A stretch of 64,000 bases of DNA from Trypanosoma brucei (taxonomy: Eukaryota). The notes under the pieces were generated by a model that worked only from the letters and a program-made list of their open reading frames with translations, did not search any database and was not told where the DNA came from. This document shows, in pieces, positions 4,995 through 48,813 of this stretch. Numbering within the stretch: position 1 is the first letter of the stretch; the number at the start of each line of letters is the position of its first letter. Location: the NCBI GenBank assembly GCA_000002445.1, contig CH464491.1, positions 512,001 through 576,000 on the forward strand, written 5' to 3'. Position numbers and translations under genes: made by a program.

Positions 4995-5225
4995 TCACGC
5001 CTTCTTAGCGGCGGCCTTCTTGCCGGCAACCTTCTTGGGGGCAACCTTTTTGGGAGCGGCCTTCTTGGCTAAAGGTTTCTTGGCAACAGCCTTTTTGGGA
5101 GCAGCCTTCTTAGCGACAGCCTTCTTTGGAGCAGCCTTCTTAGCGACAGCCTTCTTTGGAGCAGCCTTTTTGGGGGCTGCCTTCTTGGCCACAGCTTTCT
5201 TGGGAGCAGCAGATGCCTTCGCCAT
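4995..5225 (-). CDS. H1: histone H1 (copy A), 76 aa, Lys/Ala/Pro pentapeptide repeats
   Basis: [20 protein letters not shown]...KKAAAKKA. The track ORF 4995..5408 was trimmed to the internal ATG at 5225 (cat at 5223-5225). The upstream part of the track ORF translates the T-rich UTR. Kinetoplastid H1 is a short AK/P-rich protein lacking a globular domain. Confidence 0.85.
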   Translation of the reverse strand: MAKASAAPKKAVAKKAAPKKAAPKKAVAKKAAPKKAVAKKAAPKKAVAKKPLAKKAAPKKVAPKKVAGKKAAAKKA

Positions 5226-5651: not shown

Positions 5652-5894
5652 TCACGCCTTCTTAGCGGCGGCCTTCTTGCCGGCAACCTTCTTCGGGGCA
5701 ACTTTTTTGGGAGCGGCCTTCTTGGCGACAGCTTTCTTGGGAGCAGCCTTCTTAGCGACAACCTTCTTAGCTAAAGGTTTCTTGGCAACAGCCTTCTTTG
5801 GAGCAGCCTTTTTGGCCACAGTTTTCTTTGGAGCGGCCTTTTTGGCTGCAACCTTCTTTGGGGTGGCCTTCACAGTAGCGGTTGTGTTGTTCAT
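5652..5894 (-). CDS. H1: histone H1 (copy B), 80 aa, variant N-terminus [14 protein letters not shown]
   Basis: Same pentapeptide-repeat body and identical C-terminus ([13 protein letters not shown]) as copy A. ATG at 5894. The N-terminal 12 residues and the 5' flank differ from the other copies. Confidence 0.75.
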
Positions 5895-15483: not shown

Positions 15484-15533
15484 CCCCCCCCCCATGCGCA
15501 ACGAAGATTGAACCACATCAGGGGGGGGGGGGG
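15484..15533. other. inverted homopolymer pair C10 - 27 nt - G13 (potential very stable G:C hairpin / G-rich structure) in intergenic region
   Basis: acaCCCCCCCCCCatgcgcaacgaagattgaaccacatcaGGGGGGGGGGGGGtag read directly. It lies ~330 nt downstream of the stop of the coiled-coil gene 15866..17065 on the transcribed (minus) strand. Confidence 0.6.
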
Positions 15534-19176: not shown

Positions 19177-19247
19177 TCAGCTCTTCCCCGACAGCGATAC
19201 ACGGCTGCGCGAACCTACACAAAGCCACACCACAAATTTGATGATCG

Positions 19248-19260
19248 GGGGGGGGGGGGA
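19248..19260. other. G13 homopolymer (C13 on the transcribed minus strand) ~70 nt upstream of ATG of gene 17689..19176
   Basis: gatcGGGGGGGGGGGGGaagtg read directly. On the sense strand it is an all-C pyrimidine tract in the position where a trans-splicing polypyrimidine tract is expected. Confidence 0.5.
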
Positions 19261-20602: not shown

Positions 20603-20833
20603 TCACGCCTTCTTAGCGGCGGCCTTCTTGCCGGCAACCTTCTTCGGGGCAACCTTTTTGGCGACAACCTTCTTGGCTAAAGGTTTCTTGGCAACAGCCT
20701 TTTTGGGAGCAGCCTTCTTAGCGACAGCCTTCTTTGGAGCACCCTTCTTAGCGACAGCCTTCTTTGGAGCAGCCTTTTTGGGGGCTGCCTTCTTGGCCAC
20801 AGCTTTCTTGGGAGCAGCAGATGCCTTCGCCAT
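20603..20833 (-). CDS. H1: histone H1 (copy C), 76 aa
   Basis: MAKASAAPKK... Differs from copy A at a few positions (KKGAPKK, KKVVAKK). ATG at 20833 and stop tca at 20603-20605. Confidence 0.85.
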   Translation of the reverse strand: MAKASAAPKKAVAKKAAPKKAAPKKAVAKKGAPKKAVAKKAAPKKAVAKKPLAKKVVAKKVAPKKVAGKKAAAKKA

Positions 20834-21258: not shown

Positions 21259-21474
21259 TCACGCCTTCTTAGCGGCGGCCTTCTTGCCGGCAACCTTCTT
21301 CGGGGCAACCTTTTTGGGAGCGGCCTTCTTGGCGACAGCTTTCTTGGGAGCAGCCTTCTTAGCGACAGCCTTCTTTGGAGCACCCTTCTTAGCGACAGCC
21401 TTCTTTGGAGCAGCCTTTTTGGGGGCTGCCTTCTTGGCCACAGCTTTCTTGGGAGCAGCAGATGCCTTCGCCAT
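21259..21474 (-). CDS. H1: histone H1 (copy D), 71 aa (one pentapeptide repeat fewer)
   Basis: MAKASAAPKK...[23 protein letters not shown]. It lacks the KKPLA repeat unit, so this unit has a 639-bp period against 655 bp for copy C. ATG at 21474. Confidence 0.85.
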   Translation of the reverse strand: MAKASAAPKKAVAKKAAPKKAAPKKAVAKKGAPKKAVAKKAAPKKAVAKKAAPKKVAPKKVAGKKAAAKKA

Positions 21475-21899
21475 ACTTCCGAGTGTTGATAAGATTGCGA
21501 CTTCTTCCACAGGGAGAAAGAGAAAAATGAAAGCAAAATAAAATGAATGTGAAAGAACATGAGAATACAATGAGTTTAGAGTAAATAAGCGGAAAGGAAA
21601 AAGACCTACAGTAATACTATTGGACCAAAACCATACACAGGCAGTTAAAATAGCCACACATCAGGATGATATGCTCTTTGCAACGCTACGACACCAACAC
21701 CGCATGGCGGTACATAAGACGCAACCCACAAATGAAAATATCCAATAAAAACGGTAGAAGGGAACTAAATAAGTAAGATAGGAAAAATCTAACTCCGTCC
21801 TGGAGGGACGCACGAGGACGTCCTGAAACGTGTGACAGCTTTCTCCCACACTCAGGTAAACCTCATAGCGTGTCTAATAGCGGGCAGCAGCGGATGCGC

Positions 21900-22130
21900 T
21901 CACGCCTTCTTAGCGGCGGCCTTCTTGCCGGCAACCTTCTTCGGGGCAACCTTTTTGGGAGCGGCCTTCTTGGCTAAAGGTTTCTTGGCAACAGCCTTTT
22001 TGGGAGCAGCCTTCTTAGCGACAGCCTTCTTTGGAGCAGCCTTCTTAGCGACAGCCTTCTTAGGAGCAGCCTTTTTGGGGGCTGCCTTCTTAGCCACAGC
22101 TTTCTTGGGGGCAGCAGTTGTCTTCGCCAT
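21900..22130 (-). CDS. H1: histone H1 (copy E), 76 aa, N-terminus MAKTTAAPKK
   Basis: Full ORF with ATG at 22130. The body is identical in style to copy A. The 5' flank is unique because this copy is at the array edge. Confidence 0.85.
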   Translation of the reverse strand: MAKTTAAPKKAVAKKAAPKKAAPKKAVAKKAAPKKAVAKKAAPKKAVAKKPLAKKAAPKKVAPKKVAGKKAAAKKA

Positions 22131-26075: not shown

Positions 26076-27044
26076 TTATTCTACATGAACAATAATTCCG
26101 GTATTCCGTACCCCAGTTGCGGAGGTAATGAAGCTCCTTATAGATCCCTTAACGAGGCCGCGCACGGAGCTCTGATCAGCCGAATCGTGCTTCAGAAGTT
26201 TAACTGCACAAAGTGAAGAGTCCCTGGGTGAAGTTGAATGTGTCCACGCACAAAGACAGAGAACTCTTTTAACACCAACAACACTGCATATCTCGGAAAT
26301 TAGGGTCTGGAAAAACGACAGCTCTCCATAAGGCTGATTTGACAACAGCAAAACTTTACCTGTTTCCTCTAAGAGGGGAAACGCCGATGCAGCTATGAAA
26401 AACGAACACAGAATGCTACAAATTGGGTCAGAAATCCTCGCCCCCGTCAGTGTAATTATGATACTTGATGTCATCACGCTTATGCTCCCTAGAAGATCAG
26501 CCAGTATGTGCAAGTAAACCCCTCTAATATTGTGATCAACCGAGCCCGAGCAACCACCATGAGCATGTGAGTGACCGTGCATACCATGAAAAAAAATGAT
26601 TCCTAGAATATTTACAATTAACCCGATAAGTGAAACTTGTATCAAATATCCAGCTTCAATTTCCGGCGGTTTAATTATCCGTTCAATTGATTCCAGGGTA
26701 ACATACCATGCAATAAATAGTAGAAGAACAGCGTTTACAAAGCCTCCCAAAACTTCATATCTCGCATACCCAAACGGATACCTCCTTTCATCAGATGGAA
26801 AGGATGCAACAACGGCAGCGCACAAGCCGATGGCAATAGAAGCGGAGTCGAGCATCATGTGAAAGGCATCAGAGATAAGCCCCAGCGAATTAACCGCAAT
26901 TCCATATACTAATTCAAGCACCATCACCCCAGTCGTCAGCAACAGAAACATCGCTAAATTCCTCTCCCGTCGGCTGGAAAATAATTGACTGATAGCATTT
27001 GCAACAGAAATATCGTTCCCCTTGTAGGGAAACCCGGGAAGCAT
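26076..27044 (-). CDS. cation diffusion facilitator (CDF/ZnT-like) metal transporter
   Basis: 322 aa with six hydrophobic helices, a His-rich loop HGMHGHSHAHGGCSGSVDH and an HILADLLGSISV motif typical of CDF transmembrane helix 5. ATG at 27044. It is the promoter-proximal gene of the minus-strand PTU. Confidence 0.75.
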   Translation of the reverse strand: MLPGFPYKGNDISVANAISQLFSSRRERNLAMFLLLTTGVMVLELVYGIAVNSLGLISDAFHMMLDSASIAIGLCAAVVASFPSDERRYPFGYARYEVLGGFVNAVLLLFIAWYVTLESIERIIKPPEIEAGYLIQVSLIGLIVNILGIIFFHGMHGHSHAHGGCSGSVDHNIRGVYLHILADLLGSISVMTSSIIITLTGARISDPICSILCSFFIAASAFPLLEETGKVLLLSNQPYGELSFFQTLISEICSVVGVKRVLCLCAWTHSTSPRDSSLCAVKLLKHDSADQSSVRGLVKGSIRSFITSATGVRNTGIIVHVE

Positions 27045-30000
27045 TAGTCACTTATTTGAACACACATAACGATAACAATACAACCATAAGCATTCGTAAA
27101 AAAAAAACGAAAAATGTATAATGTAAGTGTGAAAACTGCGAAACAGACACAGCTCAGTGCCAGAAACAATAGCAAATACAAATTTGAGGCGGGGAGAGTA
27201 CCAACCTGTTCCTTGGACATGGCGAAACGGCCTCACATTACGAGACCAACTCCTTCCCTAAAATAAGAAAAGGAGGTAAATTTGTAAAAAGGAGATCGCC
27301 TATTTATTTTACATCTGGCGGACGTTTCAGACTACCCATCAAAACTACAAGCAAAAATCATATTCCTTCCTCAAAAAGGGGGGGATTAACCGCCCACCAA
27401 CCACCCTCCAGAGGTAAGGGGCAAGAGAATACCAAAAATAAAAGACATTAGGTAACTACGTGTAACACCAGATGGGTCAATAGCAATATCCCACAGCATT
27501 CATTCTTACCAGGATAAATGCACATACGCAGTCGCCTCCCTGTGTACAATTAAGGTAATTCAACAAAGAAAAAATGTTGAACCACAAAGACTGTCTTCAT
27601 CCATCAAGGTTTCTTCTGTTACCGCGGAAAAACGGTTTGAACAACTCCATCCCGATCCTCTAATACTTATGCATGCCTAGTAGAGGAGTCCTTCTCCTTC
27701 AAGTCCATTAAGACAAACCATACGTCCACAGAAGACCAGATATTGGAAACTGCAAAGGAGTAATTAGTGAACAGAGAAAACGGTCGTATATTCCTCAATT
27801 GTCAGTATGATCTCCAAAACAAATCACCGAAAACACCAGACAACCGTCAACAATGAGAAAAACAGGGGGAAAAATACACTGCGTAGTGGAGCCTCCCATT
27901 GCATTGACCAGTCCTTCGTTCACATCTATATTTCAAATGGTCCAACGCCAATTATACCTCATACCTAAACTAATGATGTACCCAACAATAAAGATGCGTA
28001 TTAATATTAAAGCTGGTTGTTGTTTTCATACGTTAAGCACGATAAAAGAAATATTAGTAACAATAGAAATAATAGATTCCATCAACAAATCAACTCACCT
28101 CTCACCACCAAAAAAAAAAAGTAGTAAGGAATGTAAGGCGAAGCTAATTGGTCGCAGTAAAAAAAACTCGGAGCAGTATTTTAAAAAAGGGGGGCAAGGA
28201 CAACGGAGGCAGTTGAGCACCAAGTATTCAGAGCTTTATCTCCCACTAACAACGGTAGGCTCCCACTAACACCGACGCCGTTTCCACCTGTTACGCCTAC
28301 GTGCAATATCCCCCTACCTGATGGGTGGCAGCAAATCCTACAGTGAATATGTTGAATTGACCGGGTGTAAAAACACTCAATATAGCAATTCGTAACCCGA
28401 CAACTTGGTTAAGGAGAAAAGTTTCTTTGAGGTACTTTTGGTTCAATGTCAAAACAAAAGCGAGGGGCAAAATAAAGAGTAGATTGCACAGGAATTTAAT
28501 TAACTTTTGCAAATAGAAAATACAATAGCTTCAAGTATTCTGAGTCCCTCTGATTGTCGACCTCTGAATATTTAAGGTAGTGGTCCATGCAACTGCACGA
28601 TACTATTTAGCACTCAATTAAACGATTGCTTTTTTTAAGTTTCTAACAATAGTATTATTTCAAGGATGATCCAGAGACGGAAACTTCTCTTGAAGCGGGT
28701 GTAATAATACTTAAAAGAGAGAAAAGGCACACTTTCACAGTAATAAAGTACGTTACATGTCGAAGGAGCTAGAAAAGAGCGATGAGCAAACATCAAGATA
28801 GGCAGCCCAGTACCCTGGCTCAACAACGTTTAAACAAAAAACAACAAAAACTGGTGATTCACAAAACATAATAACAATATATATGTCTAAATTTTGCGTT
28901 GTTACGGGAAAATAATGGCATCAGAGGTGACGTTGATGAAGTGTCACCCAAACAAGAACGCCGCCAGTGAATGCAGTACCTGCAAGGATTCGCAAGTGGC
29001 TCCAGGCGCCACAAAGCTAGCAGGTGAGAGAGACAGAAAATAAAACATCAATCCCCTGCGACCGCAACGGAGCGGCACAGCACCAAAAGGCCCAACATCG
29101 TCATGGTGGAAGAGACACTAAGCATCAGCACCCTTGTCGGAAGAATGAAACTACATTACCGGGCCAACCATCAGCGGCCCGCTTTAAAGCGCAGCGCACC
29201 AACGAGCTTCTGGGAGAGAGAAACACCGCGGGCTATATGGGTGACGGCACCAAAGTGTCACGACAAGCGGGGGGCGTCGACTTTCCAGATGGGCAGCGAC
29301 AGCATCGACCCGAGCCGGACAACACCATTCGCGAGGTGGTGCGGAACATGGGAAGCCCTCCCCATCTCCACCGAGGAGCCTTGCCCTGGAGGAGACACTC
29401 AGACAAGGTAAGACACACCTCTCCCCAGAAAGCCTTCTCTTAATATATTTAAATACCATGTAGCCGACACGTCCGACCCGAGAGGCAATTCGGGCCGTCC
29501 TCTCACATCCGCAACGGCGCGAGGGCACGTGAGGGGCTAACAGCCCTACACACATTGGGAAGAGTGGCGGCCTCTCTCGTGCTTGCACCGGGTGTTCACC
29601 ATGCCATGACACCAGTCTCCTTTTCCCAACACACCTCAACATGGGAAGAGGAGGGCCGGAGACTCTGAGCGACGCGTACTGACGTCCAGTTCCTAGAATG
29701 GCCAACAACGTACGCAATCCCGTTCGGCGTACCCACATCCAATGTCGTCCACGCCAAATGGTATCAACCAAAGGGTCGGCGAGGTATCGAACTGGGCCCC
29801 ATCCGCGAGCCCAGCAACCACAACACTTTGAAAGTGCTTGATACCACCGCTGGCGCCACAGAAGTGAGGACAGCTCTATTGACATAATGAAGATCATCAT
29901 TCTCACGGGAAAAAATCAGGTTGGCCGCGCGTATCAGCAAAGAGACAATCCGAAAGTTTTCTAAGGAAGGTGGGCAACGCGAATGGCAACACATACCCAG

Positions 30001-33000
30001 TCGTGCGTGGTGCCGGATAGGGTGGAAAAAAAAAAAGAACCCCCCCCCCGGGAGTCGAGAGGTCGCCCCTGACGACAGACGAGAAACATTTCTTATGCCC
30101 GGCTGGCACCACCGAAGGACCCAGGGGGGAAAGAAGGATGGTCGCCCCGGCGGTGCCAGCACAGGGTAGCCACTCGGGACAACAAAGCAAACCTCGGTAA
30201 ACAGAACAATAGGGTATCGAAACTGGTCGTGGCAGAAGAGCGTTTTAAACGCTGCGACAACTGCTCGCAACCCACTAGGCGGCGTCAACCCCCAGCGCTC
30301 GTTACTCTCGGGCTTCCGCGGGCCGAGGGGCGACAAGGACGAGCTGCGGCCGGAAGGTAACAAACAATGCCAACGAAACAGCGCGACGCATGGAAGATGA
30401 AAGTACTGGAGGTCAAGGGTTGCTTACTCGGGGCGTTTTATGGGCCCAACGGAAAGGCTACAATATGGGCGCTGCTTGGTGAATCGGAGATTTGTGGGGG
30501 CAGCACGTACTCGAGTAGCTGAAATATACGAACTGCAGCGAGAAGTAATATGTATTTAACCCGTTCAATTGAACCCTGTAATGCAGAAAAACACTGCGCT
30601 ACTGAAAGCAGAGCTCCATCACAACGTTACCGGTGGAAACAAACTGGATATCGACATTTCACCATTTTCAAAGTTATCGGAACGGATGGTCGCCAGTAGG
30701 TTCTGTGGTACCGTGGACCAACCGTCATGGGCGTAACAAGCCGAGTTAACACGAACGCCTCGAACAGTAGGCAGCATAGCGCAACTTTTTCGGACCTGAG
30801 TTTCTCTAGAAATATCACCAGGCGCCGCTGCTGTATTCACGCACCGTCCCCGAGCACTTGTATCAGTGAATCAAAGCCGCGCCATCCACGCATCGGAAAG
30901 ACTCCCCGTGGACTCATAGTCACTCGATGGATTAGCAATTCTCCAAGCAGAGTGGTGTGAGCCAGAGTGTGCACACTTCCGGGGGCTACCGCTAATACTG
31001 GGACCGCCGCAGGGACCAACGTTGGGCCTCATTCTGTTCAACCCTTGGAACAGTGGTAAATGTCTCGTCCCAGGGTTCAGCACCATGAGGGGACTCTGTT
31101 CCACTACATGACTTACCCTAGTGATGCAGAATACTTCAACGTAGTACCAGAGACCTCTGACACGTTTTTTCGCGTGAGACCAATAATCTTAAGGGGTGCA
31201 GACCTGTGGAACACTGTTTTGGCCGATCCGCTCGGTCGACCATACGGCATGGGGTCCGCCAACCCCGTTGCGGGATATCGCTTCTCTACGTTGTTCCCCT
31301 GACAGGTGCTAGTATTCCGGCAAAAGCATAACTTCAAGTAAGACAGCGGTCTTATTACACAGCATCCTGCAGTGTTGTTTCCTAGTTGCCCCGGTTTTTC
31401 GTATTTCTCACGAAGGTAAAAAGAAAATCTCTAACTTTTTTTTTGTTAATCAAAACGGCAGACGAAGTGAACATGGCACTTAACAGCGTGCAAGGGACCT
31501 GGCGCCACTTCGTTGTCGGTGATCTAAGTCTGGAGGTGATGGAGAAACAATAAGTACGGTGAAGCTGCAGCGTGGGCCACAAAAGGGTGGAAACAGTGAT
31601 GTAACCGTTGGCAGGGCGGTTGTAGGTCCTGCGCTGAATGAGATTTTGTTTGCTTCAAGCGTGGTGAAACATTCAAACCCAAAACACATAGGAGTCACAA
31701 ATGTCAGGTACCAGAAGTCTTCAAGAACTAATAGCGGTTTTAAACCAGGTAAGTAGGGTTATTGCTATTAGGCGTCAAGTAATGTAGGAGATGCCCACTA
31801 CCAGGGCACAAAAGAGAAAGAGCATCCGGAACACATTCCCAGCGCGACGACAACAAACGCAAATAAGCACTAGGGCAAAGAATTGCACCACTGGGTCTGA
31901 AAAGAAGCAGAGGACATGATGATAGGATGCGCACCGGCGACCCGAGCGCCAGAGTGCTTGTAAAAGGAATGTCACGCTTACCGAAAAGGTAAATTGCACA
32001 AACCTGTTTCCTCGGTACAAAACTGAAGAATCGGAAAGGTAGTGCGCTAACGCGGGGAATGGAAAGCACTTATACATTCGCCACTAAATGAACGGGGAAG
32101 GAGTAAACCCCCACATTCTTCACGGCACCCCAATATATTGGTAAATGCGTCCAGTTTCTATGATCCTGTTGGTATCGTCTTCCCAGGGTGACTCGACGAA
32201 GGGTTTGCAGAACTCAGGTTTCAAAAGTGCGGTGCCTACGCGCCGGAAGAACCCCAACCCTGGCAGAAACGACGGATGTCTGGGGGTTGGCGAGAAAATG
32301 CGCCTTATTCTGTGAACGCTTAAGAGCGGAACAAAGAAGTGTAGGCTTCCACTACAACTGGCGGTTATAGTATGGAGCAAAAAAAAGTTATAGTGAGTCG
32401 AATCCGCAGCACGATGTAAAGTTTTCGATCGAGGGGAGGGGTTAAATTAAAACGCAATCCCACAAGTCCACATAGCTGGAAAGGGGTCAGATTAAATCCC
32501 ATAAGCTACGATGCAACTAGTTTGGTCACTAGTTTTGCAGCCACATCGGCATTACGGCACTGAAGCAGTGGGAACAGCTACTGAATTTAGAGGCAACCCA
32601 CTATGCACTATCGCGAACGACGGCCAGCAACAGAAAAAAAAATGAAGCAAATCTGGGGGGAGGGAGAAGAGAAAGTTTAGCGCCAGATCTGAAAGGATGG
32701 CCTCATAACACGTGCTGTTATGATTTGAATTGGCCTCTTGTGTCTGAGATATCTCGTTGTGTTATCCAAAAGTTTGTTTGAGGTAAGGGAACCTGGGCAA
32801 TCCACAACGGACAGTTCAGCAAAACAGAGAGGGGAAATCAATGGAAGATAATTCAAGGAGGAGAAAGAAGAATCAAAGGTGTAACTGAAACTGGATCCCA
32901 AGAATGAACTTACGAGAAGTTGCAACGCGTCGAAGGTTCCCGGGCTGGTGGACAGCTCCTGTAACACACGCGGTGCGCGGGTTATATAAAACCAACAGTA

Positions 33001-35006
33001 CGCTCTTGGAGGTTGCCCGACGAACATGAAGAAGGGTTAAAGGCCTGTTTGGAAACCCATCGGCTTCCAAATTTGTACGGAACGTGTCAGTCGTATCGGT
33101 CTGACAGTGGACCCGACAAATGGGATGCACCGATAAGAGGGTAAACGCCCATACATATTAAAACTAGGATGTAAAAGGCTTTTCGGCTACATGTTAGGAT
33201 GGGACACCTTGAATCAGGAGGGGTAAGAAATCAGAATCTTCTTTTGACACTCCTTGGGGTGGTGTGGCACGTAAACTAGAAACTGTAACTGGGCAATTGA
33301 GGGTTCTATACGGGGAAAAGAGGTGCCACACTTGTTCCCTCATCTCAATTAAAAGCTTTTCCACTTCTATTACGGCCAGCACTACCCTCGCCCGCCCCAA
33401 TGGTTGAAATGGCGCCACCTCAGCCGGGGAACTCGGCTCTCTTCGAAGTGTCGCATTCTTTTTCCTCCGCTTGTCCATACAATACCTACTCGCAAGCTGG
33501 TGAAAATTAAGCCGCCAAGTCCCTCTCAACGGTATGCGCATAATCCGTGCCTGGCAAAATCAACTATTCTGAAACACTGTCTGTAGACACAAAGGGCGGT
33601 TAAGGCGCTCATTTTCATCTTCCATTTACTCTTCCTCCATCACACAATCAAACAAAAAACTTTCTCATTTTAGTGACAATGCCATTCGAACGGCGTCTTC
33701 GAGTATGCCAAAGCGGACCCATGTGCCCTACTCGGGCCGCAACGCCAGCAGCGCGTTATGGCCTTTACCAAGGGTTTACTGGGGAGTATAGTCGTTTCTC
33801 CATATTCCTGCATCATAGTTCCCTCTGGTTGTATTTCCCACTTTCTTTCTATAATCCTTCTGCGTTGGTTGACGAATGGATGTGTTACGTGGGCAGTTGC
33901 TCCATCACTGCGAAATGGTAGAAGGTGGGGGTGATAAACCTTGAGGTGTCGGGTGAAAGCAACCCTTTTCCACGTTCTGTACCGCCACATTCTGTATTCG
34001 GGTGCGCCAACCGCCGGCTTGAGTGCTTTTTCGTCCACATTGGCAGAAACGGGGTGCAGGTTGCAGAGTCCTTTTATTTATTTATTTTTGTGGGTGCCAT
34101 ACTTTTCAAGACTTCTCAAACAATTTCCTCTGCAATGCCGTCAGCCGCCTATTCGAGGTGAGTTTATCTTAAGGGAAATGAGGCGCATGACAACGTTGTT
34201 TTTTTTTCCACTTTACCCACAGCGAGGGCCTTCGCAGGGGCCGACGCATTGCCTGCGACAAAATGCCCAACTTTTGATATGCTTCGTTTCTTGTTGGGGA
34301 AAGATTTCAGTGCGAGCTTCGTTTGAAGAGCGAAAACAATTATGTATCTACGCTTTAAAGGGCATTTGATCAAAAGAAAATACCTTTCCACAGAGTTTCT
34401 CGTTGTCGTTAGTGTGTCCGATGTTCCGGTTAAGGTTAACAACTGGAGTGTGGATGTTTCCCGCAACGCGAAGCATTTTCACTTGGTAGTGGAAGCGGTG
34501 GCGTCGTCGGAACATGTCTTTTCGTGAGACTTTCGAGGTGTGATAAGGAGTTGTGTAGCGGTTCCGCGCCTATGCGAGTGTAAAGCCTGCAGGCTGTTTT
34601 CTTCCCGCCGCCGCGGTTTCCTGCTATGTTCAAGTGAGGTTGTCTCGTTCCGTTCGAATGTTGTTGTGGAGTTCACCCCTGGTGACCGGCGTTCCCTTTA
34701 GGCAGTGCAATTCACCTTAGTTATCTGACTACTAGCCTTATTTTGCTCTGTTATTTAAATATATATTTGATTGCCGTTACAATCTGACACTGTGCTGAGG
34801 AAGGTAATTGGGAGACATCTATGATAAAGTTCGCTTGTGTATTGAAAGGATGCAAGCTCCATTACAAAATAGGTAATGTGTTTTATTTTAACTGGTCGCT
34901 CGAGGCATGCTATCTCGTGCTTTAAATATTTTCTCAGCCTTATTTTTTCTAGTGTTCAACACCTGAAGTTGTTGCTGCTACTTTTCGTCGGAAGGAAGGC
35001 GTGGGT
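27045..35006. promoter_or_regulatory. divergent strand-switch region (putative bidirectional RNA pol II transcription start zone), ~8 kb, gene-free, with GC-rich core ~28900-31350
   Basis: Coding strand changes from minus (all genes <=27044) to plus (all genes >=35007). No ORF here has a recognisable family or a plausible trans-splice context. Plus-strand composition shifts from A/C-rich (27.0-28.9 kb) through a GC-rich block to T/G-rich (31.4-35.0 kb). An A11-C10 homopolymer lies at 30026-30049. Confidence 0.6.
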
Positions 35007-36671
35007 ATGTCCTTTTTCCAGTTGGATTGGGAATGTTCATATCAAGAGTATATGAAAATGATCTATCATCACGCAACGAACTATGTTCCGCCACGGGTTT
35101 CACAAGAGAGGCACCTCATCACTTGTAGGGAGCTGCTGAATGAAGCTCAGAGGGAATGCAAGGGAGGCAAGTATGATCTTTCCTTCTTTCACTACCTTCG
35201 GTGTGTGGAGATTCTCACTAAGGTGGGGATACCCTCTACATACAAAGATTCAATGGTTTTGAAGAAGCAGTGTATGGATGCCATTGAAGCCCTCATGAAT
35301 GGCGCTCTTAAAAATCACTATGAAAAAATGGTTGAAGAATTAAACTCGAAGAAGGAAGGAGTTGATGTTTTAAGTGTAGGGGATCCCTCTGTAGTTAATG
35401 TGAACAATGAGGAAGCTGAACATTTGAAGCGTAGGGAGGTGCTTCTGAAAAATGAGCGCGGTACTTTGGATAGTTGGAGGGGAGAGATAGGAGAAACGCG
35501 TATACCCTACAATCAAATCTATAATACCACTGTGGATTATCAGTATTGGAATCGTGATGTTGCAGCAACCGTGGCATCAGATGGTGTAGTTGTTCCGCCA
35601 CGATCCATACCGTGTGCTTCCCCTAACGCTTACTGCAAGTGGACATATAACTCTAGTTTTCAGGGTAAGTGGAACCCTAGACGGGGAATGGTTAATCTTG
35701 GTAATACTTGCTATTTGAATAGCGTCGTACAGACGCTTGTTTCTACACCATTGGGGGCTTATTTTCTGGGTGACAAGTATACGCTTGATGTCAGTACTGC
35801 TGGGAGGCAGACTTGTAGGCTGGTCAACTCTTTCACTTTCATTGTTCGAGAGTTGAACCGCAGGGACTGCGCTGCCCCTGTGAGTCCTTCACCATTTAAA
35901 AAAGCGATGGGAGAGGTTAATGAAGCGTTTTCTGGTTTTGGGCAACAGGATGCAAATGAGTTTCTGAGAGTCCTTCTTGAGGGGATACACGACGGGTTGA
36001 ATGATCGAAGAACGGTCAAAGCCGTTCCGAGTGACGCAGACACTATCGAATTCAGTGATGCGGAGTTGGCGAAACGCCACTGGGAGCAATACACGCAACA
36101 AAACAATTCTGTTGTCGTTGATAACTGTGCATTTCAAGAGCGGAGTTCTATTATGTGTTTAGTATGTCGAAGAATTAGTAGGTCTTTTACATGTTCGTTG
36201 GGAATCGACGTTCCCATTCCTGCCGGGACTGGGAACATTTGCCTGGAAGACTGCTTCAGACTATATTGCAAAGAAGAGGAGTTGGATCTTGATTCAGCGT
36301 ATCACTGCCCTTCGTGCAAGCAAAAGGTCAAAGTATCGAAACAGCTTTTGTTGTATTCACTACCGACCCTGTTGTTTGTAACGATCAAACGTTTTCGAAG
36401 CGATGGCGCTATATCGATGAAATTAAATGACCCCGTTTTCTTTCAGAAAAAGATTGACTTAAAACCCTTCTTGTGTTCGACAGAGAAAAACACCATATAC
36501 GATTTAGTCGGTGTGGTGAACCACAGTGGGAGCACGACCGGCGGCCACTACACTGCTGATTATTATGATAATCATTGTGGGTGGTCTTCAGCTAGTGATG
36601 AGCGAGTCTCTAGGGCGGACAAACCTGACTATCGACTTGTTTATATTCTGTGTTACGTACGTTCTGCTTAG
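35007..36671 (+). CDS. ubiquitin carboxyl-terminal hydrolase (USP family, peptidase C19)
   Basis: Cys box GMVNLGNTCYLNSVVQTL, QQDANEFL, and His box GSTTGGHYTADYYD. The track ORF begins at GTG 35001; the ATG is at 35007. First gene of the plus-strand PTU. Confidence 0.8.
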   Translation: MSFFQLDWECSYQEYMKMIYHHATNYVPPRVSQERHLITCRELLNEAQRECKGGKYDLSFFHYLRCVEILTKVGIPSTYKDSMVLKKQCMDAIEALMNGALKNHYEKMVEELNSKKEGVDVLSVGDPSVVNVNNEEAEHLKRREVLLKNERGTLDSWRGEIGETRIPYNQIYNTTVDYQYWNRDVAATVASDGVVVPPRSIPCASPNAYCKWTYNSSFQGKWNPRRGMVNLGNTCYLNSVVQTLVSTPLGAYFLGDKYTLDVSTAGRQTCRLVNSFTFIVRELNRRDCAAPVSPSPFKKAMGEVNEAFSGFGQQDANEFLRVLLEGIHDGLNDRRTVKAVPSDADTIEFSDAELAKRHWEQYTQQNNSVVVDNCAFQERSSIMCLVCRRISRSFTCSLGIDVPIPAGTGNICLEDCFRLYCKEEELDLDSAYHCPSCKQKVKVSKQLLLYSLPTLLFVTIKRFRSDGAISMKLNDPVFFQKKIDLKPFLCSTEKNTIYDLVGVVNHSGSTTGGHYTADYYDNHCGWSSASDERVSRADKPDYRLVYILCYVRSA

Positions 36672-48172: not shown

Positions 48173-48813
48173 GAGAGCCGTTTGGGAAACGTTGCAACTA
48201 CCGCAATATCGTCGGACCAGAAACTGAATGCATAACCGCGCTCACAAGCATAATCTCTTGTAACAAGCGCGTTGGGTGCGATGATGCGTACGGACGGGAG
48301 TGTGGCAGCGATGTTGTTGAGATGGAGTAAGGCAACGTGGCGCTTTCCACTCGTTGGGTGCTTTCCCATGCGGTTGAAGCTTGATCTGACTCTCAGGGGG
48401 TTTGGCTGAAGAGCATGCAGATTCGGGTGAAAGCAAATGTTCGAGTGGGAGTGTGTAATAAAATAATGCTACAGAACCTAAGCTTCAGTAGATCTTTGAT
48501 AAGTATTTTCCTCCCCTTCCCGTAGCTGATCCGCAGTGCCTTGAGGGCGCAAGCAAGAGGTGTGTGACGTGTGAATAGTCTAGTTTCTCCCAAGGAAAGG
48601 TTGGGTGGGGGGGGGAGTTAATGATTTTCCACGATTTAATCTTCCAGAAGCTGCTGATGATACGGAGGCTCGTGAGTTGTGAGCGATCTTAGTGTCATAA
48701 CATGGATTGCGTGTATATCTGTGCGTTGAAGAGATCTGTATCATTTTATTGGACATTAGGTCTTTTTTACTCTTGTCTACACGGTCTTATTTTTATTTTG
48801 AAGTGTTTCACAC

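What the first reader, a model, noticed from the sequence alone, without database searches (positions are those of the whole stretch)
27045..35006. Unusually long (~8 kb) gene-free divergent strand-switch region with a GC-rich core
All genes to the left are on the minus strand and all to the right are on the plus strand. This polarity flip is the signature of a kinetoplastid bidirectional pol II start region.

The interval is larger than typical divergent strand-switch regions and has three parts. From 27.0 to 28.9 kb it is A/C-rich, like minus-PTU UTR sequence. A ~2.4 kb GC-rich block follows at 28.9-31.35 kb, full of overlapping 140-240-codon ORFs on both strands, none with recognisable motifs. 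From 31.4 to 35.0 kb it is T/G-rich, like plus-PTU UTR sequence.

The GC block could be the promoter core, a decayed retroelement (DIRE/ingi/SIDER-type remnant), a pseudogene, or an unannotated structured ncRNA. An A11-C10 tract sits in its middle (30026-30049).
Basis: partly seen in the sequence, partly recalled or inferred. Interest (0 to 1): 0.6.

Follow-up and report, generated by a model that had tools for sequence, protein, structure and literature searches.

The report
Known trypanosome divergent transcription start region
This is an ordinary, already catalogued stretch of Trypanosoma brucei chromosome 11 where two gene arrays start and run in opposite directions; its GC-rich middle shows no sign of a gene, mobile-element remnant or known RNA.

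Summary
The window is T. brucei TREU927 chromosome 11, v4 positions 512,001-576,000. The strand flip at 27,045-35,006 is real. It lies between the cation transporter Tb11.42.0002 (minus) and the ubiquitin hydrolase Tb11.46.0014 (plus).

Kolev et al. 2010 (Table S14) already list both arrays as 'Divergent' Pol II units. The same gene pair is divergent in Leptomonas, T. cruzi and T. theileri.

'Unusually long' is not supported: T. brucei divergent switch regions are described as 5-10 kb.

'Gene-free' is only partly right:
- A spliced-leader, polyadenylated transcript, Tb11.NT.25, occupies 27,186-28,012 (minus).
- The 238-codon ORF in the GC block is annotated as Tb11.42.0001. It is listed as producing no detectable transcript. 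It also has non-coding codon usage, mostly non-synonymous differences, a frameshift in one assembly, and no homologues outside T. brucei.

The GC block (54.5% GC) is real. It gave no Pfam, Rfam, tRNA, repeat or cross-species match.

Strand composition suggests three zones:
- a GT-rich sense zone for the minus array, up to about 30.5 kb, ending just beyond the length-variable G10/T11 tract;
- a skew-neutral 3.3 kb spacer;
- a GT-rich zone for the plus array, from about 33.75 kb.

Verdict: already known; low interest.

The parts
26076..27044 (-). First annotated CDS of the leftward (minus) array: cation-efflux / ZnT5-7-like transporter, Tb11.42.0002
   Evidence: Pfam Cation_efflux on the called gene. 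Identical to the TREU927 and T. equiperdum protein. Poly(A) site at chromosome position 537,674, which is window 25,674 and 402 nt past the stop.
27186..28012 (-). Published novel transcript Tb11.NT.25 (826 nt, spliced leader plus poly(A)). It carries only short ORFs (43 aa or less on its own strand).
   Evidence: Kolev 2010 Table S7 gives 540012->539186 (-), and Table S13 gives a poly(A) site at 539186/539189. The paper states that novel transcripts were counted only if they had both SL and poly(A). On the minus strand an AG sits at 28014-28013, immediately before 28012, and a T11 tract at 28120-28110. ORFs.
27045..30500 (-). Zone that is GT-rich on the minus (sense) strand: the inferred start region of the leftward array
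   Evidence: 10-mers with at least 9 A/C on the plus strand number 11-48 per 500 bp up to 30,499, then drop to 3. Keto skew is -0.22 to -0.05. GT-rich sense elements drive directional initiation in T. brucei (Wedel 2017). Its function at this locus is inferred.
28901..31350 (.). GC-rich block (54.5% GC), non-coding, with no detectable homology
   Evidence: Composition. Six-frame Pfam gave 0 families. Best codon score in any frame is 0.018 bits/codon or less. No Rfam match. No similarity to the orthologous regions of T. cruzi, T. theileri, T. vivax or Leptomonas. No plasmid match.
29184..29900 (-). Annotated hypothetical CDS Tb11.42.0001 ('T. brucei spp.-specific protein'); judged spurious
   Evidence: Listed in Kolev Table S2, 'ORFs not producing a detectable transcript'. 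Codon score for the 240-aa GTG-start ORF 29184-29906 that contains this CDS is -0.108, against 0.001-0.33 for 23 real genes. Three non-synonymous and one synonymous difference from T. b. gambiense, and a 1-nt deletion in assembly GCA_003543875. The only database hit is itself.
30026..30049 (.). A11-GAA-C10 tract, which reads G10-TTC-T11 on the minus strand, near the outer edge of the minus-sense GT-rich zone; length-polymorphic
   Evidence: Sequence. C10 in TREU927, C12 in T. equiperdum, about C12-T-C6 in T. b. gambiense, C11 in GCA_003543875. Oligo-d(G.C) runs longer than 7 bp are strikingly absent from T. brucei nucleosomes. 10-mers enriched on the coding strand at the 5' ends of start regions contain long G or T stretches.
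30501..33750 (.). Skew-neutral central spacer, purine-rich on the plus strand at 31.5-33.2 kb
   Evidence: 500-bp windows in this zone have keto skew between -0.09 and +0.03; few strand-biased 10-mers on either strand at 30.5-31.5 and 33.0-33.5 kb, moderate numbers on both strands elsewhere. No Pfam, Rfam or repeat signal.
33751..35006 (+). Zone that is GT-rich on the plus (sense) strand: the inferred start region and 5' flank of the rightward array
   Evidence: Keto skew +0.12 to +0.20. 10-mers with at least 9 G/T number 26 and 15 per 500 bp at 34.0-35.0 kb, against 0-1 A/C-rich 10-mers.
33408..35367 (+). 1.96-kb segment (right end of the region plus the first 361 nt of the hydrolase CDS) that has a second copy about 100 kb away on chromosome 11
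   Evidence: 98.98% identity to L013 8401-10361, which is T. b. gambiense chromosome 11 at about 432.9-434.8 kb. The truncated copy is P0170 and the ORF of Tb11.NT.20.
34936..34938 (+). Probable spliced-leader acceptor of the hydrolase mRNA: AG at 34936-34937, first transcribed base 34938
   Evidence: In the duplicated copy the ORF begins at nt 70 of transcript Tb11.NT.20. That places the acceptor 69 nt upstream of the ATG, where the window has an AG, with a pyrimidine-rich stretch (34920-34935) just upstream. Inferred by analogy.
35007..36671 (+). First CDS of the rightward array: ubiquitin C-terminal hydrolase, Tb11.46.0014
   Evidence: 100% identical to the TREU927 protein XP_828277; Pfam UCH. 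Listed as the first gene of a 'Divergent' plus-strand unit.

Best explanation
The interval is the divergent strand-switch region on T. brucei chromosome 11, at about 539.0-547.0 kb in TREU927 v4. RNA polymerase II starts two polycistronic arrays there, in opposite directions.

Shown:
- The gene polarity flips here, and the same divergent gene pair is conserved across trypanosomatids.
- The leftward array extends at least to 28,012, because a spliced-leader-capped, polyadenylated transcript (Tb11.NT.25) is processed from it.
- Published 5'-triphosphate RNA mapping classed both arrays as starting at a divergent site.

Inferred from composition, by analogy with the GT-rich dispersed promoters of Wedel et al. 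2017:
- Leftward initiation is spread over the 27.0-30.5 kb zone, which is G+T-rich on the minus strand. This zone includes the left 1.6 kb of the GC block. It ends just beyond a G10/T11 tract that should exclude nucleosomes.
- Rightward initiation is spread over the zone that becomes G+T-rich on the plus strand at about 33.75 kb.
- The 3.3 kb between them is a skew-neutral spacer between the two start regions.

The GC-rich block itself is non-coding, lineage-restricted DNA. Its long ORFs come from its composition: it is GC-rich, and the minus strand is poor in A.
For: - Strand polarity.
- Organism and coordinates: identity to TREU927 proteins and an exact 512,000 offset to published coordinates.
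- Prior cataloguing: Kolev 2010 Table S14 lists both units as 'Divergent', and the text says 5'-triphosphate reads were enriched at every divergent unit.
- Processed transcript: Tb11.NT.25 is in Table S7, and AG and polypyrimidine signals sit at the expected places in the sequence.
- Synteny: the hydrolase/transporter pair is divergent in Leptomonas, T. cruzi and T. theileri.
- Composition: the skew and strand-biased 10-mer profiles show three zones.
- Mechanism in the literature: GT-rich sense elements drive directional initiation and H2A.Z deposition. Divergent regions of 5-10 kb hold two oppositely oriented core promoters.
- No coding, RNA-family, tRNA or repeat signal in the interval.
Against: - No TSS, Pol II or histone-variant data for this locus could be read at base resolution here. 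The positions of the two start zones and of the spacer therefore rest on composition alone.
- The SPARC study found no shared motif under Pol II peaks and suggests T. brucei promoters are heterogeneous.
- Divergence from T. b. gambiense is somewhat lower in the GC block (0.98%) than in the flanks (1.2-1.75%). This could mean some constraint that the model does not explain, but the counts are small (24 differences in 2,450 bp).
- The 243-codon open frame is longer than 98% of composition-matched shuffles.
Confidence: 0.85

Rival explanations
1. The GC-rich block is the decayed remnant of a lineage-specific insertion, such as a mobile element (ingi/DIRE/VIPER) or a captured gene. It enlarged an ancestrally compact switch region of about 2 kb and has no function of its own. 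This is compatible with the best explanation and concerns only the origin of the block.
For: - The orthologous interval is only 1.9 kb in T. theileri and 2.3 kb in Leptomonas.
- In T. cruzi it is 6.5 kb, GC-rich, and carries two ORFs with no Pfam match that look like retroelement remnants by eye.
- The T. brucei block has no counterpart in any other species examined.
- An A11 run lies in its middle.
Against: - No RT, endonuclease, RNase H or recombinase domain in any of six frames.
- No residual coding periodicity.
- No target-site duplication or terminal repeat.
- No paralogues of its annotated ORF in the protein collection.
- No similarity to the T. cruzi insert.
- T. theileri's compact region also has a GC-richer core, so a GC-rich centre does not need an insertion to explain it.
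Confidence: 0.25
2. The block encodes a real T. brucei-specific protein, Tb11.42.0001 (238 aa), which would then be the true first gene of the leftward array.
For: - It is annotated in TREU927, T. b. gambiense and T. equiperdum.
- The open frame is longer than 98% of shuffles.
- Divergence within it is 0.56%, similar to CDS values.
Against: - It is listed among ORFs producing no detectable transcript.
- Its codon score of -0.108 lies in the range of wrong frames.
- It shows three non-synonymous and one synonymous change against T. b. gambiense, with further non-synonymous variants and a changed start in other samples, and a frameshift in one assembly.
- It has no homologue among 5.8 billion proteins, and the neighbouring 199-aa ORF has none among 1.8 billion representatives.
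- No Pfam domain.
Confidence: 0.03
3. The GC block or the central spacer produces an unannotated non-coding RNA (a lncRNA, or a structured small RNA made by Pol II or Pol III) that has a function.
For: - T. brucei has more than 1,400 mostly intergenic lncRNAs.
- Low-abundance transcripts without a spliced leader were seen at divergent start sites.
- A few 150-nt windows on the minus strand fold better than shuffles, with z about -3 to -3.7 at 28,050, 29,750 and 30,050.
Against: - No Rfam match even at E <= 1, and no tRNA.
- Mean folding z-score over 158 windows is about 0.
- Kolev's novel-transcript list has nothing between 540,012 and 600,671 on this chromosome.
- T. brucei lncRNAs are reported as less GC-rich than mRNAs.
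- There are no orthologues against which covariation could be tested.
Confidence: 0.1

Closest known systems
T. brucei divergent strand-switch regions with paired Pol II transcription start regions (Siegel 2009; Kolev 2010; Wedel 2017; Cordon-Obras 2022)
   Same: Head-to-head polycistronic arrays. Length within the quoted 5-10 kb. G+T bias on each sense strand. Long G and T runs at the distal edge. Processed non-coding transcripts upstream of the first gene. This very locus is listed in Kolev Table S14.
   Different: Nothing essential. The leftward GT-rich zone is longer (3.5 kb) than the rightward one (1.25 kb), and the centre is more GC-rich than other non-coding DNA in the window. Whether that is unusual among the 71 divergent start regions counted by Wedel et al. 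was not measured.
Leishmania major chromosome 1 strand-switch region (bidirectional initiation near poly-C/G tracts; Martinez-Calvillo 2003, recalled from memory and not read here)
   Same: Divergent arrays, no canonical promoter, and a homopolymer G/C tract inside the switch region.
   Different: The Leishmania region is far shorter (under 1 kb as recalled), and its start sites were mapped directly. Here the tract's role is inferred only, and G/C runs of 7 or more also occur eight times elsewhere in the 64-kb window.
Mammalian CpG-island dispersed, bidirectional promoters
   Same: Broad, motif-poor, GC-rich, divergent initiation. Kolev et al. draw the same comparison.
   Different: There is no gene-by-gene regulation, each start feeds an array of dozens of genes, and the marking is by H2A.Z/H2B.V and H4K10ac in trypanosome-specific form.
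Degenerate trypanosome retroelements (DIRE, ingi/RIME, VIPER/SIRE)
   Same: They are often found at array boundaries. The T. cruzi orthologous region seems to hold one (by eye only). The block contains an A-rich run.
   Different: No reverse-transcriptase, endonuclease or recombinase remnant, no repeats and no second copy were detected.

Membership tests
Kinetoplastid divergent strand-switch region / Pol II start region | Flanking genes point away from each other, with uniform polarity on each side | tested here: met
   ORF map; the two off-strand ORFs are non-coding by codon usage; annotated loci.
Kinetoplastid divergent strand-switch region / Pol II start region | Experimental evidence of initiation (5'-triphosphate RNA enrichment); classed as a divergent unit start | tested here: met
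   Taken from the literature, not computed here. Kolev 2010 Table S14 lists Tb11.42.0002 (-) and Tb11.46.0014 (+) as first genes of 'Divergent' units, and the text states enrichment at every divergent unit.
Kinetoplastid divergent strand-switch region / Pol II start region | H2A.Z/H2B.V, H4K10ac and H3K4me3 twin peaks; RPB1/SPARC peaks | not testable with these tools
   No ChIP-seq tracks are available here. The general property is described.
Kinetoplastid divergent strand-switch region / Pol II start region | Sense-strand G+T bias that flips across the region | tested here: met
   Keto skew runs from -0.22 through about 0 to +0.20. Strand-biased 10-mers switch at 30.5 kb and at 33.75-34 kb.
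Kinetoplastid divergent strand-switch region / Pol II start region | Length typical for the species | tested here: met
   7,962 bp, against the '5-10 kb' quoted for T. brucei. No genome-wide distribution was computed.
Retroposon or retrotransposon remnant (ingi/RIME/DIRE/SIDER/VIPER) | Recognisable RT, AP-endonuclease, RNase H or tyrosine-recombinase coding remnants | tested here: not met
   Six-frame Pfam of 28,800-31,500 and of the flanks gave no family above threshold. Two minus-strand frames of 33,250-35,006 were not scanned. Pfam also missed the suspected T. cruzi element, so sensitivity is limited.
Retroposon or retrotransposon remnant (ingi/RIME/DIRE/SIDER/VIPER) | Multiple copies in the genome | tested here: inconclusive
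   No second copy within the 64-kb window and no paralogue of the annotated ORF in the protein collection. The whole T. brucei genome could not be searched by DNA.
Retroposon or retrotransposon remnant (ingi/RIME/DIRE/SIDER/VIPER) | 3' poly(A) and flanking target-site duplication | tested here: not met
   An A11 run exists at 30,026, but no direct repeats flank any candidate unit.
Protein-coding gene (Tb11.42.0001) | Codon usage, transcript, purifying selection and homologues | tested here: not met
   Score -0.108; no detectable transcript in Kolev Table S2; three non-synonymous to one synonymous change plus a frameshift; the only hit is itself.
Known structured RNA family (snRNA, 7SL, snoRNA, tRNA) | Match to an Rfam covariance model or a tRNA model | tested here: not met
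   No Rfam hit at gathering score over the whole window, none at E <= 1 on 26,900-35,200, and no tRNAs.

The most novel reading that the evidence does not exclude
The GC-rich block is a T. brucei-lineage-specific acquisition that now defines the outer boundary of the leftward start region. Its G10/T11 tract would act as a nucleosome-excluding element whose length varies between subspecies, and the block may give rise to an unannotated start-site-associated RNA. The slightly reduced divergence of the block would then reflect real constraint on a promoter element that arose recently.
Probability: 0.1. Interest if true: 0.35.

Novelty: already known. Interest (0 to 1): 0.1.

Why it matters
It matters little beyond bookkeeping. 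The locus is one of the 71 divergent start regions (as counted by Wedel et al.) already mapped in T. brucei.

Three points are useful:
- The annotated CDS Tb11.42.0001 should be treated as spurious.
- The first processed RNA of the leftward array is Tb11.NT.25, not the transporter mRNA.
- The orthologous region is about four times smaller in T. theileri and Leptomonas. That makes this gene pair a convenient case for studying how start regions expand, and which parts are dispensable.

Tried and rejected
- Pfam on all six frames of the GC block and of nearly all the rest of the interval. Only sub-threshold chance hits appeared (DUF7860 E=0.003, Ntox27 E=0.008, UCR_6-4kD E=0.05).
- Homology search with the 240-aa ORF (the only hit was itself) and with the 199-aa ORF against 1.8 billion representatives (nothing).
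- tblastn, tblastx and blastn of the T. cruzi, T. theileri, T. vivax and Leptomonas switch regions against the T. brucei one: nothing below E=0.05.
- A test of whether the left part hides a decayed N-terminal domain of the transporter. That domain is present in T. theileri, T. cruzi and T. grayi. An HMM of it gave one marginal hit (E=0.025, 9.4 bits, at 28,297-28,512 minus) at the wrong distance from the gene. The domain is also absent in T. vivax and Leptomonas, so the hit was rejected as chance.
- Rfam at a permissive threshold, tRNA scan, direct, inverted and tandem repeats: nothing meaningful.
- Folding z-scores: no general signal.
- A plasmid search for foreign DNA: no match.
- Confirmation that the T. 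cruzi ORFs are VIPER: Pfam and PDB sequence searches were both negative, so this stays a visual impression only.
- A search for this locus in replication-origin and lncRNA supplements: not held or not listed.
- Siegel 2009 and Cordon-Obras 2022 could not be read. The G-tract observation attributed to Siegel 2009 is from memory, apart from its mention in Wedel 2017.


Full report
**Identity of the window**

The ubiquitin hydrolase encoded at 35,007-36,671 is 100% identical to the T. brucei brucei TREU927 protein XP_828277, which lies on a 5.26-Mb chromosome. The cation-efflux protein at 26,076-27,044 (minus) is identical to the TREU927 and T. equiperdum protein, and 99% identical to the T. b. 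gambiense chromosome 11 protein.

The 238-aa ORF at 29,184-29,900 is EAN79164, 'hypothetical protein Tb11.42.0001'. Kolev et al. 2010 place that ORF at Tb927_11_01_v4 541,184-541,900. The window is therefore chromosome 11 positions 512,001-576,000, an exact offset of 512,000. The offset is confirmed independently: the transporter's published poly(A) site (537,674) falls 402 nt past its stop codon, which matches the published 3'UTR length.

**Checking the observation**

The polarity flip is real and the interval is 7,962 bp.
- The left part is A/C-rich.
- The block at 28,901-31,350 is 54.5% GC, against 44.8% for other non-coding DNA in the window. It contains the most GC-rich non-coding 1-kb windows of the whole 64 kb.
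- The A11-GAA-C10 tract is at the stated place.
- The right part is T/G-rich only from about 33.75 kb. 31.35-33.2 kb is purine-rich, with A above T.

The long ORFs are largely what the composition predicts. The minus strand of the block is A-poor, so stop codons are rare there. Markov shuffles give a mean longest open frame of 141 codons per strand. The plus strand shows 140. The minus strand shows 243, which 1.6% of shuffles reach. There are three frames of 140 codons or more, against 1.2 expected, and 11% of shuffles reach three.

**Is it gene-free?**

Not by annotation, and not by transcript.

Tb11.42.0001 is annotated in three genomes, but it fails every test of a real gene:
- It is in Kolev's Table S2, 'annotated ORFs not producing a detectable transcript'.
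- Its codon-usage score is -0.108 bits/codon. All 23 real genes in the window score 0.001-0.33 in leave-one-out tests, and their wrong frames score below 0.04.
- Differences from T. b. gambiense are three non-synonymous and one synonymous. Other samples add further non-synonymous changes and lose the start codon, and one assembly has a 1-nt deletion.
- It has no homologue outside T. brucei among 5.8 billion proteins. The overlapping 199-aa ORF has none among 1.8 billion representatives.

A sliding six-frame codon score finds no coding-like segment anywhere in the block.

A genuine processed RNA does lie in the interval. Tb11.NT.25 runs from 540,012 to 539,186 on the minus strand, which is window 28,012 to 27,186, and is 826 nt long. 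The paper counted novel transcripts only if they carried both a spliced leader and a poly(A) tail. The sequence agrees with this. On the minus strand an AG sits immediately before 28,012, and a T11 tract lies about 100 nt upstream. The RNA has only short ORFs. The leftward array therefore reaches at least 28,012.

**What the interval is**

Kolev's Table S14 lists 'Tb11.42.0002 .. Tb11.55.0027, -, Divergent' and 'Tb11.46.0014 .. Tb11.02.0010, +, Divergent'. The text states that 5'-triphosphate reads were enriched at every divergent unit. The region is thus an already catalogued bidirectional Pol II start region.

The arrangement is old. The same hydrolase/transporter pair is head-to-head in three other species:
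- Leptomonas pyrrhocoris, gap 2,349 bp;
- T. cruzi Dm28c, gap 6,471 bp;
- T. theileri, gap 1,864 bp.

**Is it unusually long?**

Not for T. brucei. Divergent switch regions there are described as '5-10 kb regions ... [quoted passage not shown] Initiation is thought to occur within regions about 10 kb wide that are enriched in H2A.Z.

It is long only in comparison with the orthologous regions of T. theileri and Leptomonas.

**How it probably works**

Wedel et al. showed that sequences biased between strands, mostly long G or T stretches on the coding strand and most numerous at the 5' end of start regions, can drive directional initiation and H2A.Z deposition. I profiled this bias across the interval.

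| Zone (window) | Strand-biased 10-mers per 500 bp | Keto skew |
|---|---|---|
| 27,000-30,499 | 11-48 that are G/T-rich on the minus strand | negative |
| 30,500 to about 33,750 | few or mixed on either strand | near zero |
| from about 34,000 | 15-26 that are G/T-rich on the plus strand | +0.12 to +0.20 |

At 30,500 the minus-strand count drops to 3.

Oligo-d(G.C) runs longer than 7 bp are strikingly absent from T. brucei nucleosomes. The C run varies in length: C10 in TREU927, C12 in T. equiperdum, about C12-T-C6 in T. b. gambiense and C11 in a fourth assembly.

The most likely model has two dispersed, oppositely directed start zones separated by a 3.3-kb spacer. The left 1.6 kb of the GC block belongs to the leftward zone. 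These positions are inferred from composition. Only the polarity, the processed transcript and the published 'divergent' classification are shown.

**What the GC block is not**

- Not a known protein domain. Six-frame Pfam scans found nothing in the block or in the rest of the interval.
- Not a known RNA family. There was no Rfam hit at gathering score, none at E <= 1, and no tRNA.
- No internal repeats or target-site duplications.
- No excess RNA structure. Mean z is about 0 over 158 windows, with five windows below -2.5.
- No similarity to the orthologous regions of four other species.
- No similarity to plasmid DNA.

Divergence from T. b. gambiense varies by segment.

| Segment | Divergence |
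|---|---|
| GC block | 0.98% |
| Left part of the interval | 1.75% |
| Right part of the interval | 1.23% |
| Coding sequences | 0.3-0.7% |

The block is somewhat lower than its flanks, but the counts are small.

T. theileri's compact region also has a GC-richer core of 0.5 kb (51-55% GC). It lies between AT-rich arms carrying A-runs on the left and T-runs on the right. A GC-richer centre may therefore be the ordinary state of this region rather than a sign of an insertion. A decayed lineage-specific insertion still cannot be excluded, because the whole T. brucei genome and a repeat library could not be searched.

**Verdict**

The core interpretation is right, but the locus was already described in 2010. 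The claims of unusual length and of being gene-free do not hold as stated. None of the more exotic readings of the GC block gained support. Interest is low.

Noticed in passing
window 33408-35367; L013 8401-10361: The last 1.6 kb of the switch region plus the first 361 nt of the hydrolase CDS has a second copy about 100 kb away on chromosome 11. It is 98.98% identical and lies between a GRESAG4-type adenylate cyclase and an LRR gene. The copy carries a truncated 139-aa hydrolase ORF (P0170, the ORF of Kolev's Tb11.NT.20). It is as similar as the orthologues are, so it is either recent or homogenised by gene conversion.
   Followed up: partly
window 4995-5225, 5652-5894, 20603-20833, 21259-21489, 21900-22130 (all minus strand): Five histone H1 gene copies (about 76-80 aa, [10 protein letters not shown] repeats) sit in 0.55-0.65-kb repeat units. 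They correspond to Tb11.55.0001, Tb11.39.0008 and Tb11.42.0005-7. A 200-aa ORF cutoff misses them.
   Followed up: partly
window 26076-27044 (-); L010 6340-8136; L008 1904-3529; P0002: The ZnT5/7-like cation transporter has a conserved multi-pass N-terminal extension of 230-290 aa in T. theileri, T. cruzi and T. grayi. The extension is absent from the T. brucei (322 aa), T. vivax (293 aa) and Leptomonas (284 aa) proteins. No convincing relic of it lies upstream in T. brucei.
   Followed up: yes
L008 3530-10000 (T. cruzi Dm28c): The orthologous T. cruzi switch region is 6.5 kb and 52% GC. It carries two called minus-strand ORFs (340 and 183 aa) with no Pfam or PDB match. By eye the 340-aa one has a tyrosine-recombinase-like box ('ITASRWSEIAAL'), which suggests a VIPER-type remnant. 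This was not verified.
   Followed up: partly
L001, L009, L011, L012 contig ends: Draft assemblies of T. equiperdum, T. vivax and T. grayi all break inside or at the edge of this switch region. Contigs end at window position 33,774, at 185 nt and 192 nt upstream of the hydrolase gene, and at 2.5 kb upstream of the transporter. This suggests sequence that is hard to assemble there.
   Followed up: no
window 15484-15533, 19247-19259, 48607-48615 and others: Homopolymer G/C runs of 7-13 nt occur eight times outside the switch region in the 64-kb window (for example C10 and G13 at 15.5 kb, and G13 at 19.2 kb). Such tracts are therefore not specific to the switch region.
   Followed up: no
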